From assembly GCF_057098645.1 (NCBI RefSeq), contig NZ_CM169472.1: a DNA stretch of 64,000 nucleotides, one strand, 5' to 3'. Below the pieces are notes generated by a model. The model ran no database searches. It worked only from the letters and a program-made list of their open reading frames with translations, and had not been told where the DNA came from. This document shows, piece after piece, positions 6,158-39,041 of the stretch. Position 1 is the stretch's first letter; every line of letters begins with the position of its first letter. Position numbers and translations under genes: made by a program.

Positions 6158-7261
6158 ATGAGTGACAGCCAGACGCTGGTGGTAAAACTCGGCACCAGTG
6201 TGCTAACAGGCGGATCGCGCCGCCTGAACCGTGCCCATATCGTTGAACTTGTTCGCCAGTGCGCGCAGTTACATGCCGCCGGGCATCGGATTGTTATTGT
6301 GACGTCGGGCGCGATCGCCGCCGGACGTGAGCACCTGGGTTACCCGGAACTGCCAGCGACTATCGCCTCGAAACAACTGCTGGCGGCGGTAGGGCAGAGT
6401 CGACTGATTCAACTGTGGGAACAGCTGTTTTCGATTTATGGCATTCACGTCGGGCAAATGCTGCTGACTCGTGCTGATATGGAAGATCGTGAACGCTTCC
6501 TGAACGCCCGCGATACCCTGCGTGCGCTGCTCGATAACAATATCGTTCCGGTAATTAATGAGAACGATGCTGTCGCTACGACAGAGATTAAAGTCGGCGA
6601 TAACGACAACCTTTCTGCACTGGCGGCGATTCTGGCGGGTGCCGATAAACTGTTGCTGCTGACCGATCAAAAAGGTTTGTATACCGCTGACCCGCGCAGC
6701 AATCCGCAGGCAGAACTGATTAAAGATGTTTACGGCATTGATGACGCACTGCGCGCGATTGCCGGTGACAGCGTTTCAGGCCTCGGAACTGGCGGCATGA
6801 GTACCAAATTGCAGGCCGCGGACGTGGCTTGCCGTGCGGGTATCGACACCATTATTGCCGCGGGCAGCAAGCCGGGCGTTATTGGTGATGTGATGGAAGG
6901 CATTTCCGTCGGTACGCTGTTCCATGCCCAGGCGACTCCGCTTGAAAACCGTAAACGCTGGATTTTCGGTGCGCCGCCTGCGGGTGAAATCACGGTAGAT
7001 GAAGGGGCAACCGCCGCCATTCTTGAACGCGGCAGCTCCCTGTTGCCGAAAGGCATCAAAAGCGTGACTGGCAATTTCTCGCGTGGTGAAGTCATCCGCA
7101 TTTGCAACCTCGAAGGTCGCGATATCGCCCACGGCGTCAGTCGTTACAACAGCGATGCATTACGCCGTATTGCCGGACACCACTCGCAAGAAATTGATGC
7201 AATACTGGGATATGAATACGGCCCGGTTGCCGTTCACCGTGATGACATGATTACCCGTTAA
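6158..7261 (+). CDS. proB: Glutamate 5-kinase ProB (367 aa); start at [16 protein letters not shown]
   Basis: ORF track 6071..7261 trimmed to internal ATG matching the ProB N-terminus; amino acid kinase plus PUA domain. Confidence 0.95.
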
Positions 7262-7272
7262 GGAGCAGGCTG

Positions 7273-8526
7273 ATGCTGGAACAAATGGGCATTGCCGCGA
7301 AGCAAGCCTCGTATAAATTAGCGCAACTCTCCAGCCGCGAAAAAAATCGCGTGCTGGAAAAAATCGCCGATGAACTGGAAGCACAAAGCGAAATCATCCT
7401 CAACGCTAACGCCAAGGATGTTGCTGACGCGCGTGCCAATGGCCTCAGCGAAGCGATGCTTGACCGTCTGGCACTGACGCCCGCACGGCTGAAAGGCATT
7501 GCCGACGATGTACGTCAGGTGTGCAACCTCGCCGATCCGGTGGGGCAGGTAATCGATGGCGGCGTACTGGACAGCGGCCTGCGTCTTGAGCGTCGTCGCG
7601 TACCGCTGGGGGTTATTGGCGTGATTTATGAAGCGCGTCCGAACGTGACGGTTGATGTCGCTTCGCTGTGCCTGAAAACCGGTAACGCGGTGATCCTGCG
7701 TGGAGGCAAAGAAACCTGTCGCACTAACGCGGCAACGGTGGCGGTGATTCAGGACGCCCTGAAATCCTGTGGCTTACCGGCGGGTGCCGTGCAGGCGATT
7801 GATAATCCTGACCGTGCGCTGGTCAGTGAAATGCTGCGTATGGATAAATACATCGACATGCTGATCCCGCGCGGCGGGGCTGGTTTGCATAAACTGTGCC
7901 GCGAACAGTCGACGATCCCGGTGATCACAGGTGGTATAGGCGTATGCCATATTTACGTTGATGAAAGTGCAGAGATCGCTGAAGCATTAAAAGTGATCGT
8001 CAATGCGAAAACTCAGCGTCCGAGCACATGTAATACGGTAGAAACGTTGCTGGTGAATAAAAACCTCGCCGATAGCTTCCTGCCCGCATTAAGCAAACAA
8101 ATGGCGGAAAGCGGCGTGACATTACACGCAGATGCAGCTGCGCTGGCGCAGTTGCAGACAGGCCCCGCGAAGGTGGTGGCTGTTAAAGCCGAAGAGTATG
8201 ACGATGAGTTTCTGTCATTAGATTTGAACGTCAAAATCGTCAGCGATCTTGACGATGCCATCGCCCATATTCGTGAACACGGCACACAACACTCCGATGC
8301 GATCCTGACCCGCGATATGCGCAACGCCCAGCGTTTTGTTAACGAAGTGGATTCGTCCGCTGTTTACGTTAACGCCTCTACGCGTTTTACCGACGGCGGC
8401 CAGTTTGGACTGGGTGCAGAAGTGGCGGTAAGTACACAAAAACTCCACGCGCGTGGCCCAATGGGGCTGGAAGCACTGACCACTTACAAGTGGATCGGCA
8501 TTGGTGATTACACCATTCGTGCGTAG
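7273..8526 (+). CDS. proA: Gamma-glutamyl phosphate reductase ProA (417 aa)
   Basis: ORF track; [38 protein letters not shown]...; 12-bp spacing after proB, operon arrangement. Confidence 0.95.
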
Positions 8527-8640: not shown

Positions 8641-8716
8641 GCCGATATAGCTCAGTTGGTAGAGCAGCGCATTCGTAATGCGAAGGTCGTAGGTTCGACT
8701 CCTATTATCGGCACCA
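8641..8716 (+). tRNA. thrW: tRNA-Thr (anticodon CGU)
   Basis: 76-nt cloverleaf-compatible sequence GCCGATATAGCTCAGTTGGTAGAGCAGCGCATTCGTAATGCG...TCGACTCCTATTATCGGCACCA with CGT anticodon in the loop; sits immediately after proBA as in E. coli. Confidence 0.9.
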
Positions 8717-8843: not shown

Positions 8844-9743
8844 TTAAGCCAATTGCTGCCGCCATTCCTTGACGTGGTCAATCAGGGCGCGGAGCTTTGG
8901 TGCAATATTGCGACGCTGTGGGAAATACAGATAGAAGCCCGGAAATTGTGGAAGAAAGTCATCAAGCAGAGATACAAGCTTACCGCTTTCAATATATGGC
9001 CTGAAAGTTTCCTGAGTGGCAATTGTTATTCCTCCGCCGGCAAGAGCCAGCCTCAACATCAGACGCAGATCATTAGTCGTAATCTGTGGTTCAATCGCAA
9101 GGTCGAAAGCTCTCCCGTTTTCTTCAAATGGCCAGCGATAAGGCGCAACATCCGGGGATTGACGCCAGCCGATACACTTATGATTCACAAGTTCACGCGG
9201 ATGAACAGGTGTGCTGTTGGCTGCGAGATAGGAGGGAGAGGCAACGACCATTTCACGCTGCCTGCCGGTAAGGGGCACAGCAATCATGTCTTTTTCAATG
9301 ACCTCTCCGAGCCTTACGCCAGCATCGTAACCTGCGGCCACGATATCGAATTCCTCATCCGTTACAACAATATCAAGCGTAACGGCTGGATTGGCAGCTG
9401 CAAACGAAGCGATTAGCGGACCTGAAAGAAATTCTTCTGCTATCGACGTCACCGCGATTCTGAGAAGTCCGCGTGGCACATGGTCAGAAACCATCTCTTC
9501 GAACGCTGCCTCAATACCGGATAAAGGTAATGACAGCGATTTATGCAGCCGTTCTCCCGCTTCTGTCAAATTAACTGAGCGCGTGGTCCGCATTACAAGC
9601 ATTGTCCCGAATGCATCTTCAAGGCGTCTTATTCCCTGACTGACCGCTGAACGGGTAACGCCCAGCCGTGCGGCGGCTTTACTAAAATTACTCTCTTCTG
9701 CTACCGCGATAAAAATGGGTAAAAGATTAAGATCGATTTTCAT
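8844..9743 (-). CDS. LysR-family transcriptional regulator (299 aa)
   Basis: ORF track; N-terminal HTH LNLLPIFIAVAEESNFSKAAARLGVTRSAVSQGIRRLE and LysR substrate-binding domain. Confidence 0.8.
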   Translation of the reverse strand: MKIDLNLLPIFIAVAEESNFSKAAARLGVTRSAVSQGIRRLEDAFGTMLVMRTTRSVNLTEAGERLHKSLSLPLSGIEAAFEEMVSDHVPRGLLRIAVTSIAEEFLSGPLIASFAAANPAVTLDIVVTDEEFDIVAAGYDAGVRLGEVIEKDMIAVPLTGRQREMVVASPSYLAANSTPVHPRELVNHKCIGWRQSPDVAPYRWPFEENGRAFDLAIEPQITTNDLRLMLRLALAGGGITIATQETFRPYIESGKLVSLLDDFLPQFPGFYLYFPQRRNIAPKLRALIDHVKEWRQQLA

Positions 9744-9841
9744 TGTTTAATGCTGCTAACCACTGAGTACATTGAAAGCAGGATACTGGAACCAATCATA
9801 AAGTTCTATTCTCTCTCCGAACACATTTGAAGGAGAACGTA

Positions 9842-10564
9842 ATGGATAAGGTCATATTAATTACCGGCGCATCAAGTGGTATTGGGGAAGGTATTGCCAG
9901 AGAGCTGGGAACGACAGGTGCAAAGGTTTTACTGGGAGCACGCAGAGTTGAGCGTATCGAAGCCATTGCAACCGAAATCTGCCGCGCAGGAGGAATTGCT
10001 AAAGCGCGGGAGTTGGATGTCACAGACCGACAGTCCATGGCCGATTTCGTGCAAGCAGCGCTGGATAGCTGGGGGCGAGTTGATGTTCTTATCAATAATG
10101 CGGGCGTTATGCCGCTTTCACCGCTTGCAGCAGGAAAACAAGATGAATGGGAGCTCACTATTGACGTGAATATCAAAGGTGTACTGTGGGGAATTGGCGC
10201 TGTACTTCCGGTGATGGAAGCACAGGGTTCCGGTCAGATAATCAATCTTGGTTCTATTGGTGCCCTTTCTGTTGTGCCCACAGGCGCAGTCTATTGTGCA
10301 TCAAAATTTGCAGTACGGGCTATTTCTGATGGCTTACGGCAGGAAAGCTCGAAAATCCGTGTGACCTGCGTAAATCCTGGCGTTGTCGAAAGTGAACTGG
10401 CTTCAACCATTACCCATGTGGAAACCATGAAGGCAATGGACGCCTACCGTTCTGTTGCACTTCAACCTGCGGATATTGCCCGTGCGGTAAGGCATATTAT
10501 TGAATCTCCCGAAAGCGTTGATACAACCGAAATTACCATCAGACCCACTGCATCTGCAAACTGA
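9842..10564 (+). CDS. Short-chain dehydrogenase/reductase (SDR) family oxidoreductase; start at MDKVILITG
   Basis: ORF track 9827..10564; Rossmann motif ITGASSGIG and catalytic YCASK; aggag RBS 7 nt upstream of ATG at 9842; divergent from the LysR gene. Confidence 0.8.
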   Translation: MDKVILITGASSGIGEGIARELGTTGAKVLLGARRVERIEAIATEICRAGGIAKARELDVTDRQSMADFVQAALDSWGRVDVLINNAGVMPLSPLAAGKQDEWELTIDVNIKGVLWGIGAVLPVMEAQGSGQIINLGSIGALSVVPTGAVYCASKFAVRAISDGLRQESSKIRVTCVNPGVVESELASTITHVETMKAMDAYRSVALQPADIARAVRHIIESPESVDTTEITIRPTASAN

Positions 10565-10777
10565 AGAATAACTTTTACATTCACGTTTTATTAAATAGAT
10601 CAGAAGGAAGATTTATATATCCCTGTATTTTTCATAGCAAGATGCATTATGTATTGCTCACCCCGAAGGAGATGAAGGTTTAATTACAGAAAGATTATTT
10701 TCACAGGAAGTAAACATGACTCATGTTTAATGCCTTTATATATAAAACTCATTCTCTCAATTGTCAGGAGAATTAGC

Positions 10778-11008
10778 ATGAATACTATCTGTTCTTTAAT
10801 TGTTGTGGTTGCACTGTCTTTATTATCATTCAGTAGCGTCGCCAAAACGATTACTGCCGTCGGTTCAACCATTGACAGCACTGAAAAAGAAATTTCTTTA
10901 CAGGCAGAAAAACAAGGGAAATCATATAAAATTCTGGGCGCGTTTTTTAAGAACAGAGTTTATATGATAGCAAAGTTAACACCAGTCAGTAAAAATGATG
11001 CTTCATAA
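10778..11008 (+). CDS. Small secreted protein, DUF1471 (YdgH/BhsA/McbA)-like, about 76 aa
   Basis: ORF track 10730..11008 trimmed to MNTICSLIVVVALSLLSFSSVA (signal peptide) with aggag RBS; family assignment by resemblance to small periplasmic stress proteins, not verified. Confidence 0.45.
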   Translation: MNTICSLIVVVALSLLSFSSVAKTITAVGSTIDSTEKEISLQAEKQGKSYKILGAFFKNRVYMIAKLTPVSKNDAS

Positions 11009-11214
11009 GGCTCATGGTATAATTTTAAGACATGATCAAGAAGCACGTCTATTGATTCAAAATTATCATTATGATGGCAATGGAATGCCCGACAAATGAC
11101 GCTATACCCACCTTCTGTACCAGTCGTTCTGCTAATTCTACCGATGCTTCGGTCTGGAGTAGTAAAGTAATATTGGACACAGTTTTATTTTCTCTCTTTT
11201 TCGAGGGCTGTATA

Positions 11215-11480
11215 TCAACAGGAAGAATACATCCCTAAGCGGTTAATGCTGGCGTAATCAATAGACCAGCATTAATCACAGATGATTACCAATCAGACAG
11301 AAATGGTTAAATCGTCGAATTCATATTTAATACGTTTTCTTATGCCGCTGAACAGCTTGAAAAGGATGCATATTTTAAATATCAGTGAAATGAACAGTTT
11401 ATTGCCGTTATTAATAGAAATGGAGGGATAAATACGCGTATTCTACTGTTGCAACAAAAACAACGATATTGATCGGTTTT
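11215..11480 (-). repeat. Decayed paralogous copy of the rpmJ2 3' end plus downstream hairpin region plus ykgR-like small ORF (internal deletion), homologous to 29860..30000 and 30680..30767/32100..32140
   Basis: Direct comparison within the window: acaggaaga(a)tacatcc...aatgctgg...attaat...tcgtcgaatt...acgtttt(t)tcttat/acg..ctgaac and ggatgcatattttaaatatca(g/c)tgaa(a/g)tgaacagtttattgccgttattaatagaaatggag are shared by both loci. Confidence 0.55.
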
Positions 11481-11709
11481 CATAATGAAGTAACCTGACA
11501 GATATGAAAATGTTGATTGAGGCTAAATGCCCGGATTAAGGTTGTCGAGGGGAGCCAGGTGGTTTTTTCTTTTGGATGATCTCCATTGCTGGATAGTCCC
11601 CTTGTACAGATAAGTCTGATCTTTCTCGCTCAAAGCAGACCCTGGAATTGAACGCAGAGGGACTACCTGACACAATTTTGCACAGTGAAGAGTCGGTCGT
11701 TATTAACGT

Positions 11710-35106: not shown

Positions 35107-36033
35107 ATGATGAAAATAGAGCCTTCAATTTTGCCTTCTCTTGCCTGGTTTGCGCTGATTGTTCGTGCCGGCAGTTTTTCCAGAGCCGCTTCTGAAATGG
35201 GTATTACGCGGGCCGCATTGTCTCAGAATTTAAAATCTCTTGAGGAACGTCTTAACACCAAGCTGATATACCGTACGACCCGCAATATGTCGCTTACTGA
35301 GGAAGGACAGCGTCTGTATGAAGTGCTGGTGTCGGCTTTGGGGCAAATTGATGATGTTTTGAAAGATGTTGGTGATACCCAACTTGAACCTACAGGCCTG
35401 TTGAGAATAAATTCCTCCCGTGTTGCAGCACGGATGCTTGTTGAGCCTCATATTGGCGAGTTTCTTACTCGTTACCCCAAAACAAAGATAGAACTCATTA
35501 TGGATGACGGTTTATCTAACATTATTGCGGACGGCTGTGATGTGGGCATACGTCTTGAGCAAGGACTGGATGAGCATATGACTGCCGTTCCTGTTTCTCC
35601 GCTTATTAAACTGGTTACTGTGGCATCGCCAGATTATTTAAAAGAACACGGTATTCCTGAAACGCCTCAGGAACTGAGTAACCATAATTGCCTTCGGTTG
35701 CGGCATAAAAGTAGCGGTGCACTCTCTGCATGGGAGTTTTCTAATGTTGTGGGGGGTAATGAAGAGTTCGAAATAGAGGTTTCAGGTAAGTATATTTCTA
35801 ATGATGACGAAAGCATGATACGAATGGCGCTGAATGGAACGGGTATCATTCAACATCTGGATTTTGCAATCGCTGAACATATCAATGCGGGCAAGTTACA
35901 GCCGATTCTTGAGGATTGGGCTGTTTCATTTCCTGGATTTTATATTTATGTTTCATCACGGGTGAGAATGCCCTCTAAAGTTCGTGCTTTTATTGATTTT
36001 ATGGTGGAGAAAAGAGTAAAAATAGAAAGTTAA
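35107..36033 (+). CDS. LysR-family transcriptional regulator; start at MMKIEPSILPSLAWF
   Basis: ORF track 35044..36033 trimmed; HTH FSRAASEMGITRAALSQNLKSLEERLNTKLIYRTTR. Confidence 0.8.
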   Translation: MMKIEPSILPSLAWFALIVRAGSFSRAASEMGITRAALSQNLKSLEERLNTKLIYRTTRNMSLTEEGQRLYEVLVSALGQIDDVLKDVGDTQLEPTGLLRINSSRVAARMLVEPHIGEFLTRYPKTKIELIMDDGLSNIIADGCDVGIRLEQGLDEHMTAVPVSPLIKLVTVASPDYLKEHGIPETPQELSNHNCLRLRHKSSGALSAWEFSNVVGGNEEFEIEVSGKYISNDDESMIRMALNGTGIIQHLDFAIAEHINAGKLQPILEDWAVSFPGFYIYVSSRVRMPSKVRAFIDFMVEKRVKIES

Positions 36034-36173
36034 TGTTGTGTGTCAGAATATCGGTAAGAAGAATGGCGCAATCGTGAGGATACGTTTATTCATAATAAAT
36101 CTCCTGAAAGTTTAGAATTATTTTCGATACAGCCAGATTATCATTGTTACTAATAATGTGGCTAAAATAATAG

Positions 36174-39041
<2,868 letters not shown>

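What the first reader, a model, noticed from the sequence alone, without database searches (positions are those of the whole stretch)
11215..11480. Decayed second copy of the rpmJ2 3' end, terminator hairpins and ykgR segment inside the thrW island
About 260 bp at 11215..11480 is homologous to two separated pieces of the ykgM-ykgO locus: the last codons of rpmJ2 with its downstream hairpins (29860..30000) and the ykgR region (30680..30767 plus 32100..32140). In this copy the ribosomal protein genes are absent and the ykgR-like ORF carries an internal deletion. It looks like the scar of a duplicated or recombined ykgMO-ykgR locus that later lost its coding core, which could mark an ancient rearrangement between the thrW region and the ykg region. 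Alternatively, the shared hairpin-containing segment is a small repeat family.
Basis: seen in the sequence. Interest (0 to 1): 0.5.

Follow-up and report, generated by a model that had tools for sequence, protein, structure and literature searches.

The report
Decayed relic of ykgO-ykgM-ykgR locus
About 275 bp near thrW is a dead remnant of the E. coli locus for the zinc-independent ribosomal proteins L31B and L36B and the small protein YkgR; it is ordinary as a pseudogene scar, but it marks an old 19-kb rearrangement that separates strains with and without the pao, ecp and ykgMO genes.

Summary
Window 11206-11479 aligns in order with three pieces of the ykg locus. These are the last ~12 codons of ykgO plus two hairpins (29845-30001, ~75% identity) and the ykgR 3' region (30685-30768 plus 32105-32135). 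The ykgR region forms one ungapped 115-nt block at 91% identity once an IS2 is removed. About 0.68 kb is missing: most of ykgO, all of ykgM and their promoter region. Similarity stops at ykgR codon 11/12.

It is not a repeat family: there are at most 4 places per genome and no Rfam match. RefSeq already annotates the ykgR part as a pseudogene.

The scar occurs in 913 of 5426 complete E. coli genomes, with the same breakpoints in every aligned lineage. A 6.1-kb deletion removed it in K-12-type genomes (49%). No intact second ykgMO was found.

New result: rare E. coli and a divergent Escherichia lineage carry one hybrid locus. It has the scar's left half, the same junction and an intact ykgR, but no pao-ecp-ykgMO block.

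Site patterns favour the scar being the older resident locus, split by a ~19.3-kb insertion. The rival is a secondary duplicate with the hybrids made by repeat recombination.

Interest is low to moderate.

The parts
11206..11242 (-). Distal edge of the relic. It is homologous to the sequence just beyond the ykgO terminator hairpin (29845-29881). Similarity to the functional locus stops here.
   Evidence: Alignments.
11243..11275 (-). Long hairpin (TTAATGCTGG...CCAGCATTAA), homologue of the ykgO terminator-like hairpin at 29882-29914. The stem is kept but the U-tract is lost.
   Evidence: Not called as a terminator. Nearly invariant across 8 lineages.
11281..11297 (-). Degenerate homologue of the first short hairpin (29919-29937). 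Only 5 bp of stem remain.
11328..11362 (-). Remnant of the last ~12 codons and the stop of ykgO (rpmJ2, L36B). It is frameshifted and non-coding.
   Evidence: aligned with 29966-30001.
11360..11366 (.). Junction of the ~0.68-kb deletion (about 30002 to about 30672-30684). The deletion removed ykgO codons 1 to about 34, all of ykgM and the promoter region. It is flanked by AAAA-G / GGAT microhomology. Some lineages have 9-27 extra repeat nucleotides here.
11363..11410 (-). Homologue of the ~50 nt downstream of the ykgR stop codon (30685-30732).
11411..11479 (-). ykgR pseudogene fragment: codons 12-33 plus the stop. The translated product is 86% identical to YkgR residues 12-33. An in-frame TGA lies just upstream.
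   Evidence: tblastn. PGAP pseudogene I3Y_RS29205, 'missing N-terminus'.
11478..11709 (.). 232-nt spacer between the relic's right breakpoint and the stop of the LysR gene. No homologue was found in the ykg locus or downstream of LysR orthologues in other genera.
29845..30369 (-). Functional partner: hairpins (29882-29914, 29919-29937), ykgO (29966-30106) and ykgM (30106-30369).
30685..30768 (-). Functional partner: ykgR downstream region and ykgR 3' part (stop plus codons 23-33, from 30733), up to the IS2 insertion.
30769..32099 (+). IS2-family insertion sequence that interrupts the functional ykgR in this strain (target duplication TCTAC at 30764-30768 and 32100-32104). It is not part of the relic, but it explains why the partner is in two pieces.
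   Evidence: Absent in RM9872.
32105..32170 (-). Functional partner: ykgR 5' part (codons 1-22). Only 32105-32135 has a counterpart in the relic.

Best explanation
The segment is a non-functional relic of a ykgO-ykgM-ykgR locus.

Shown:
- It keeps the last ~12 codons of ykgO with its two downstream hairpins.
- After one deletion junction of ~0.68 kb, it keeps the ~50 nt downstream of ykgR plus ykgR codons 12-33.
- It lies in direct orientation 18.6 kb from the functional locus.
- It occurs in 913 of 5426 complete E. coli genomes. Both breakpoints are identical in all eight lineages aligned.
- It encodes nothing intact.

Inferred, and favoured for the origin: the relic is the older resident ykg locus of the thrW-proximal region, which had already lost ykgO and ykgM by a microhomology-flanked deletion. 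A block of ~19.3 kb was later joined into its ykgR at codon 11/12. The block ran 232 nt-LysR-hydrolase-MFS-paoDCBA-yagU-ykgJ-ecp-ykgL-hairpins-ykgO-ykgM-ykgR. The likely route is recombination anchored by homology on the ykgR-upstream side with an illegitimate join on the other side. That would leave the truncated old ykgR plus scar on the left and a complete ykgMO-ykgR on the right.

The rare 'hybrid' genomes have the scar, an intact ykgR and no 19-kb block. On this view they are survivors of the pre-insertion arrangement.

I put about 0.95 on 'decayed ykg-locus relic without function' and about 0.55 on this origin.
For: Homology and anatomy. Both breakpoints are shared by eight E. coli lineages that differ by up to about 6%.

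Distribution: the scar is in 913/5426 genomes. K-12 lost it through a 6.1-kb deletion (window 9183-15310), and that deletion joint is present in 2683/5426 genomes.

Hybrid single loci have the order LysR1-SDR-hyp-scar left half-same junction-intact ykgR-native ykgR upstream flank. They occur in E. coli GF4-3, 6EVA and wlxctx60, in contig L102, and in a divergent Escherichia lineage, L099-L101. In that lineage LysR1 is 95%, SDR 92.7% and the aldo-keto reductases 94% identical to the window.

Site patterns in the 115-nt block:
- Six functional E. coli alleles read ctacA..gcG..attA.
- All three E. coli hybrid alleles aligned and the four copy alleles in that alignment read ctacT..gcA..attG. Three further copy alleles read the same way.
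- Outgroups read A..A..A.
- The copy-only derived states (atatcaG, aaataC, and one T in the left block) are absent from the hybrids.
- All six sites fit one tree, (functional,(hybrid,copy)), without conflict.

A crossover between the two direct repeats would give copy-like sites on the left and functional-like sites on the right. The opposite is seen.

The two E. coli hybrid haplotypes differ from each other by 5.3% over 1.35 kb, so the arrangement is old.

Among Escherichia species representatives, the YkgM scan returned only E. albertii and one divergent lineage (L006). That fits widespread absence of ykgMO in the genus.
Against: - No donor-type genome was found (the 19-kb block without the scar to its left). 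No resident locus with ykgO-ykgM still intact next to hyp was found either.
- Divergence jumps sharply at the deletion junction: about 25% in the hairpin block against 3-9% in the ykgR block. The favoured model must explain this by homogenisation of the shared right flank. The rival explains it by gene conversion.
- The site argument rests on only six informative positions.
- The divergent lineage L006 has ecp next to ykgO-ykgM-ykgR. The block's internal arrangement is therefore also old, and its left side could not be read.
- Direct repeats do delete readily, so some hybrid genomes could be secondary.
Confidence: 0.55

Rival explanations
1. Secondary duplicate. A ~1.0-kb piece of the functional locus (hairpins-ykgO-ykgM-3' two thirds of ykgR) was copied between hyp and the LysR gene in an Escherichia ancestor. 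It then lost its 0.68-kb core and drifted. Its ykgR block stayed similar to the functional ykgR through gene conversion. The hybrid genomes are deletion products of homologous recombination between the two direct repeats, which removed the 19.3 kb in between.
For: The two homologous copies lie in direct orientation 18.6 kb apart. The ykgR block clusters by lineage: E. coli copy with E. coli functional ykgR, L099 with L006. The hairpin block clusters by type. This is what conversion limited to the better-conserved block would give. Hybrid genomes are rare (3 of 5426 complete genomes), as expected for an occasional and probably costly deletion. The two-copy arrangement is widespread and is ancestral to the K-12-type deletion.
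Against: The hybrids carry functional-like or ancestral states at the left sites of the 115-nt block and copy-like states at the right sites. A crossover between direct repeats predicts the reverse. It would have to lie in the last 7 nt of homology, or be followed by patchy repair, and would have to predate all copy-specific substitutions. All three E. coli hybrid alleles aligned share this same pattern, although the two compared (GF4-3, 6EVA) differ by 5% in the flanks. The divergent lineage would need an independent event.
Confidence: 0.3
2. The shared hairpin-containing segment is a member of a small dispersed repeat family (REP/BIME, IRU/ERIC-like), not a remnant of a locus.
For: It contains two palindromes that fold better than shuffled sequence (z -3.4 to -5.5).
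Against: There are only two copies in the window and at most 4 places per genome across 5091 E. coli genomes for an 861-nt query covering the hairpins, ykgO, ykgM and the region upstream of ykgM. There is no Rfam match down to E=1. The similarity continues collinearly from the hairpins into ykgO codons and resumes in ykgR. Among 80 species with ykgM, the hairpin sequence is recognisable only downstream of ykgO in Escherichia.
Confidence: 0.02
3. The relic still has a function. It might terminate or insulate transcription between the convergent genes hyp (10730-11008, +) and LysR (11710-12594, -). Alternatively it might encode a new 33-codon ORF (11382-11483, -) that starts at an ATG just beyond the end of the similarity to ykgR and reads the ykgR remnant in a different frame.
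For: The long hairpin is almost invariant in eight lineages that differ elsewhere by several percent. It folds stably on both strands. The frameshifted ORF stays open in the lineages inspected.
Against: The U-tract of the ancestral terminator is lost, and no terminator or promoter pattern is called over 11100-11700. The ORF product matches no NCBIfam family. About 300 genomes carry an island boundary inside the hairpin, and half of all genomes have deleted the whole region. The number of variable sites is too small to show constraint.
Confidence: 0.08

Closest known systems
ykgM-ykgO-ykgR locus of E. coli K-12 (b0296, b4506, b4671)
   Same: The relic is homologous to its 3' flank, the ykgO C-terminal codons, the ykgR downstream region and ykgR codons 12-33, in the same order and orientation.
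   Different: It lacks about 0.68 kb: ykgO codons 1 to about 34, ykgM and the promoter region. From established knowledge, not tested here, that region holds the Zur-regulated promoter. It also lacks the ykgR start, first 11 codons and promoter. Its flanks differ (hyp and LysR rather than ykgL/ecpR and the flavin oxidoreductase).
RefSeq/PGAP pseudogene 'small membrane protein YkgR, incomplete, missing N-terminus' (e.g. I3Y_RS29205 in O145 RM9872)
   Same: Same object: window 11411-11479 on the minus strand. It is annotated the same way in O157:H7, ETEC and other genomes.
   Different: The annotation covers only 69 nt. The ykgO remnant, the hairpins, the shared deletion junction and the link to the 19-kb block are not annotated. 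No paper in the searchable library describes them.
Other gene remnants in the same region of K-12 (yagP, ykgP)
   Same: These are leftovers of rearrangements between thrW and eaeH/fdeC. yagP is the C-terminal remnant of the first LysR gene, left by the 6.1-kb deletion that also removed the relic.
   Different: Those are single truncated genes. This is a composite scar with two breakpoints and a paralogous partner 18.6 kb away.
Products of homology-facilitated illegitimate recombination (one homologous anchor, one microhomology join; known from natural transformation studies, cited from general knowledge)
   Same: The favoured model needs exactly this geometry: a homologous right end in the ykgR upstream flank and a non-homologous left join at ykgR codon 11/12. 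This produces a partial duplication of the anchor-side sequence.
   Different: The mechanism was not observed. The donor sequence at the left join is unknown, so microhomology at that join cannot be checked.
REP/BIME and IRU/ERIC intergenic repeats of enterobacteria
   Same: Palindromic and intergenic.
   Different: Two copies per genome instead of tens to hundreds. It is contiguous with coding remnants. No Rfam match.

Membership tests
ykgR gene (small membrane protein YkgR, Pfam PF28062) | Sequence homology to YkgR | tested here: met
   tblastn gives 86% identity over residues 12-33. PGAP names it YkgR.
ykgR gene (small membrane protein YkgR, Pfam PF28062) | Complete 33-codon ORF with start codon and N-terminal 11 residues | tested here: not met
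   Similarity ends at 11477/78. An in-frame TGA lies upstream. The ATG at 11481-11483 is out of frame. It is therefore a pseudogene fragment, not a member gene.
Type B ribosomal protein genes ykgO (L36B) / ykgM (L31B) | Intact ORFs of 46 and 87 codons | tested here: not met
   Only about 12 C-terminal codons of ykgO remain, with an indel. No ykgM sequence is present.
Dispersed intergenic repeat family (REP/BIME, IRU/ERIC) | Many copies per genome | tested here: not met
   Two copies in the window. Median 1 and maximum 4 places per genome.
Dispersed intergenic repeat family (REP/BIME, IRU/ERIC) | Match to a curated RNA/repeat model | tested here: not met
   No Rfam match at E<=1 over 10600-12000.
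Intrinsic terminator | Stable stem-loop followed by a U-tract | tested here: not met
   The stem is retained, but the tail reads UUAACCGCUU instead of the UUUUCC of the functional locus. No site is called.
tRNA-linked genomic island at thrW | Integrase next to the tRNA, with the segment lying between the attachment repeats | tested here: not met
   In this window thrW (8641-8716) is followed directly by a LysR gene. In O157, ETEC and K-12 the islands lie to the left of that LysR gene.
Direct repeats bounding a presence/absence block | Two homologous copies in the same orientation flanking the block | tested here: met
   11206-11479 and 29845-32135 are both in minus-strand gene orientation, 18.6 kb apart.
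Direct repeats bounding a presence/absence block | Genomes that lack the block and carry a single joined copy | tested here: met
   GF4-3, 6EVA, wlxctx60, L102 and L099-L101.
Direct repeats bounding a presence/absence block | Direction of the event (insertion or deletion) | tested here: inconclusive
   Six site patterns favour insertion into an older single locus. No donor or empty site was found.

The most novel reading that the evidence does not exclude
E. coli's ykgM-ykgO genes, together with the pao aldehyde oxidoreductase and ecp common-pilus operons, belong to a ~19.3-kb block. This block was inserted into the ykgR gene of an ancestor that had already deleted its own ykgMO. The functional zinc-sparing ribosomal paralogues of E. 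coli would then be re-acquired copies, and the scar at 11206-11479 would be the original locus. The rare hybrid E. coli and at least one sister lineage would preserve the pre-insertion state.
Probability: 0.5. Interest if true: 0.45.

Novelty: new member of a known kind. Interest (0 to 1): 0.3.

Why it matters
As a sequence feature it is an ordinary pseudogene scar, and part of it is already flagged by automatic annotation.

Its value is as a marker. It shows that the 19-kb stretch holding pao, yagU, ykgJ, the ecp pilus operon and ykgMO is bounded by direct repeats. That stretch is absent in a few E. coli and in at least one sister lineage. The thrW-to-fdeC region was therefore built by at least three datable rearrangements. 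This gives a concrete, testable history for genes used as E. coli markers (ecp) and for the zinc-starvation response (ykgMO). It also identifies natural strains that lack all of them.

Practically, the 115-nt repeat appears to break short-read assemblies. It can also mislead annotation transfer for ykgR.

Tried and rejected
- Chance similarity of AT-rich DNA: rejected by E-values of 1e-25 and by collinearity.
- Generic repeat family: rejected.
- Intact second ykgMO at this site in E. coli: not found. In every listed row where both halves were found together, the scar's two flanks lie 462-622 bp apart. One of the four records with two places was inspected and is an IS26 rearrangement.
- Second ykgMO in other species next to the relic's neighbours: none of 80 ykgM loci from species representatives has LysR, SDR, hyp, hydrolase or MFS homologues within 6 kb, apart from an unrelated LysR paralogue in L006.
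- Relic downstream of LysR orthologues in other genera (Kluyvera and two metagenome contigs): absent.
- A larger duplication including the flanking genes: the hydrolase and LysR genes near both loci are only 29-42% identical. They are old paralogues, not part of this event.
- 29-nt internal deletion preserving the ykgR ATG: considered, then dropped. MAFFT does not support it and it rests on 4-6 nt.
- Plasmid or phage origin of a second ykgM: plasmid hits are F-primes or chromosomes filed as plasmids. There is no phage match.
- Divergent L006-like genomes among complete E. coli genomes, to read their thrW side: none, best identity 82.5%.
- Most divergent hyp homologues as possible carriers of an intact resident locus: they are frameshifted E. 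coli alleles or contigs that end at the repeat.

Full report
**What the window is.** proA (7273-8526) and tRNA-Thr thrW (8641-8716) are followed by a LysR gene (8844-9743, minus strand) and an SDR oxidoreductase. Next come a small BhsA-like secreted protein, here called hyp (10730-11008), the segment in question, and a second LysR gene (11710-12594, minus strand). Then follow an alpha/beta hydrolase, an MFS transporter, paoDCBA, yagU, ykgJ, the ecp operon, ykgL, ykgO, ykgM and ykgR. The closest complete genome over the finding is E. coli O145 RM9872, at 100% over 501 nt. The window is not that exact strain. Its hydrolase gene product is 96.9% identical to that of RM9872, and it has an IS2 in ykgR that RM9872 lacks.

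**Check of the observation.**
- BLASTN of 10900-11900 against the window gives three collinear matches and nothing else of note.
- The partner is split by an IS2-family element at 30769-32099, with a TCTAC target duplication. Removing it makes the right-hand match one ungapped 115-nt block at 91.3% identity.
- The left block (11206-11362 vs 29845-30001) is about 75-79% identical, with a few short indels.
- In gene orientation (minus strand) the relic holds ykgR codons 12-33 with the stop and about 50 nt downstream of ykgR. After one junction it holds the last ~12 codons of ykgO, then a degenerate short hairpin, the long hairpin, and about 35 nt beyond.
- The missing ~0.68 kb (about 30002 to about 30672-30684) held most of ykgO, all of ykgM and their promoter region. 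The junction lies in short AAAA-G / GGAT microhomology.
- To the right, similarity ends at 11477/78, which corresponds to ykgR codon 11/12. The following 232 nt up to the LysR stop have no counterpart in the ykg locus.
- I first read a 29-nt internal deletion that kept the ATG. It rests on 4-6 nt and multiple alignments do not recover it. PGAP's description, 'missing N-terminus', is the safer one.

**It is not a repeat family and shows no sign of function.**
- An 861-nt query covering the hairpins, ykgO, ykgM and the region upstream of ykgM has a median of 1 and at most 4 places per genome in 5091 E. coli genomes. Rfam finds nothing at E<=1.
- Downstream of ykgO, the mRNA-sense strand folds into an 8-bp hairpin and a 17-bp hairpin followed by UUUUCC.
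- In the relic the long stem survives but the U-tract is gone. No promoter or terminator pattern is called between 11100 and 11700.
- A 33-codon ORF (11382-11483) starts at an ATG just beyond the end of the similarity to ykgR and reads the ykgR remnant in another frame. It matches no family.

**Distribution.**
- A chimeric query made of the two relic-specific flanks finds the relic in 913 of 5426 complete genomes. In the listed rows where both halves were found together, they lie 462-622 bp apart, which is the decayed form.
- One of the four records with two places was inspected and is an IS26 rearrangement.
- Eight lineages that differ by up to about 6% in this region share both breakpoints.
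- In roughly 300 genomes a different island with AbiE genes ends inside the left arm of the long hairpin.
- In K-12, yagP is the C-terminal remnant of the first LysR gene. A 6.1-kb deletion (window 9183 to 15310) removed SDR, hyp, the relic, the second LysR, the hydrolase and the MFS gene. That deletion joint is present in 2683 of 5426 genomes.
- The relic-bearing arrangement is therefore older than the K-12 arrangement.

**Other species.**
- Among 80 ykgM loci from species representatives, ykgR is found only in Escherichia: E. albertii, and a divergent lineage labelled E. coli SCPM-O-B-8794 (locus L006).
- None of the 80 has the relic's neighbours near ykgM.
- L006 has ecp-ykgO-ykgM-ykgR followed by the same LysR and aldo-keto reductase genes as the window. 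E. albertii has the three ykg genes in an unrelated context.
- LysR orthologues with their hydrolase and MFS genes occur in Kluyvera and elsewhere without any ykgR remnant downstream.
- No intact second ykgMO next to hyp was found in any contig carrying a hyp homologue.

**The hybrid genomes.** I searched with the relic's left flank joined to the upstream flank of the functional ykgR, as a test for recombination between the repeats. Three complete genomes have the two halves adjacent: GF4-3, 6EVA and wlxctx60.
- Their order is thrW-...-LysR-SDR-hyp-relic left block-same 0.68-kb junction-intact ykgR (WP_000662258.1)-flavin oxidoreductase remnant-fdeC. The second LysR, hydrolase, MFS, pao, yagU, ykgJ, ecp, ykgL, ykgO and ykgM are all absent.
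- The same arrangement is in an NCBI contig labelled E. fergusonii. Its proA is 97.8% identical to the window, so it is E. coli-like.
- It is also the arrangement in every listed context of a divergent Escherichia lineage (L099-L101; a source names the protein from 'Escherichia sp. KTE114'; LysR 95%, SDR 92.7% and aldo-keto reductases 94% to the window).

**Which came first.** I aligned the 115-nt block from six functional E. coli alleles, three E. coli hybrids, the divergent hybrid, four copies and two outgroups. Six sites are informative.
- Near the right end, the E. coli hybrids and the copies share T and G, where the functional alleles and all outgroups have A and A.
- The functional alleles have their own derived G.
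- Near the left end, the copies have derived G and C, plus a T in the hairpin block. The hybrids, functional alleles and outgroups lack these.
- All sites fit one tree, (functional,(hybrid,copy)).

A deletion by crossover between direct repeats should give copy-like sites on the left and functional-like sites on the right. The hybrids show the reverse. GF4-3 and 6EVA also differ from each other by 5.3% over 1.35 kb. The hybrid arrangement is therefore old and has a single origin, or else it is the ancestral state.

I therefore favour the view that the relic is the older resident locus. It had already lost ykgMO, and its ykgR was then split by a 19.3-kb block. That size is 11478-32135 (20,658 bp) minus the IS2 and one copy of its target duplication (1,336 bp).

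The rival is a secondary duplicate with conversion of the ykgR block and recombinational deletion. It is not excluded, for three reasons:
- Only six sites are informative.
- No donor or empty site was seen.
- Both models need an extra assumption to explain the jump from about 25% divergence in the hairpin block to 3-9% in the ykgR block.

**Comparison with what is known.** The ykgR part is already annotated as a pseudogene by PGAP. The searchable literature on ykgR, ykgM and thrW does not mention a second copy, the ykgO remnant or the hybrid genomes. The feature is a new example of a familiar kind, a rearrangement scar or pseudogene remnant. Its interest lies in what it says about the history of the pao-ecp-ykgMO block.

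**Verdict.** It is a scar of a ykg locus and an old rearrangement marker, and it is not a repeat family. However, it is not inside a thrW island, the 'internal deletion' is unsupported, and the 'second copy' may in fact be the first. Interest 0.3.

Noticed in passing
window 30769-32099: An IS2-family element (1331 bp, target duplication TCTAC) interrupts the functional ykgR after codon 22, so this strain has no intact ykgR at all. RM9872 lacks the insertion. No complete E. coli genome in the collection contains the left ykgR-IS2 junction (window 30600-31100) as one contiguous match.
   Followed up: yes
window ~11247 (locus L003 4001; also L085): In roughly 300 complete genomes a different thrW-side island (reverse transcriptase, AbiEi/AbiEii) ends inside the left arm of the relic's long hairpin. 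It replaces LysR-SDR-hyp and the first ~40 nt of the relic.
   Followed up: partly
window 9183-15310 vs K-12 297203-298905 (L095): K-12 yagP is the C-terminal remnant of the first LysR gene. A 6.1-kb deletion fuses it next to paoD. This joint is present in 2683 of 5426 complete genomes.
   Followed up: yes
window 30030-30372 as query; O157:H7 genomes such as NZ_CP033605.1: The ykgM/ykgO core gives two BLAST places in O157:H7 and some other genomes: 5729 places in 5070 genomes. The second place is not in the window, not within 40 kb of the locus in O157 (L004), and not in phage records. It remains unexplained.
   Followed up: partly
window 34030-37127: An alpha/beta hydrolase (31% identical to the one at 12760-13917) and two LysR genes (29-42% identical to the LysR genes flanking the relic) lie upstream of the functional ykgR. 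Both ykg-type loci therefore have old paralogous neighbours. These are too diverged to belong to the same event.
   Followed up: partly
L005 (E. albertii NBRC 107761): ykgR-ykgM-ykgO with its hairpins sits among unrelated large ORFs and shares none of the E. coli flanking genes. Recognisable similarity to E. coli fades within a few nucleotides of where the relic's does (about 29846).
   Followed up: partly
one search list; Among Escherichia species representatives, the YkgM scan returned only E. albertii and one divergent lineage. About 7% of complete E. coli genomes lack ykgMO, so natural strains without the zinc-independent L31/L36 paralogues are not rare.
   Followed up: no
L105, L112, L115: Several short-read contigs end exactly 449 nt after hyp, inside the 115-nt repeat. 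This suggests the repeat breaks assemblies.
   Followed up: no
L094 (strain VL7S7): An IS1-bounded deletion runs from a thrW island to the middle of ykgM. It leaves the ykgM 5' half (126 nt) next to an intact ykgR.
   Followed up: yes
L004 (O157:H7 F8798): In O157:H7 an IS66-family element (ISEc8) sits just upstream of ykgM, on the ykgR side, and IS1203 splits the first LysR gene. A P4-like island lies between thrW and that LysR.
   Followed up: no
junction at window ~11359-11366; L096 ~7250-7275: The deletion junction is a small variable repeat. O78, ETEC and the hybrids carry 9 extra nt (gaaaagcag). GF4-3 has the motif gaacagctt three times. The window allele lacks all of these.
   Followed up: partly
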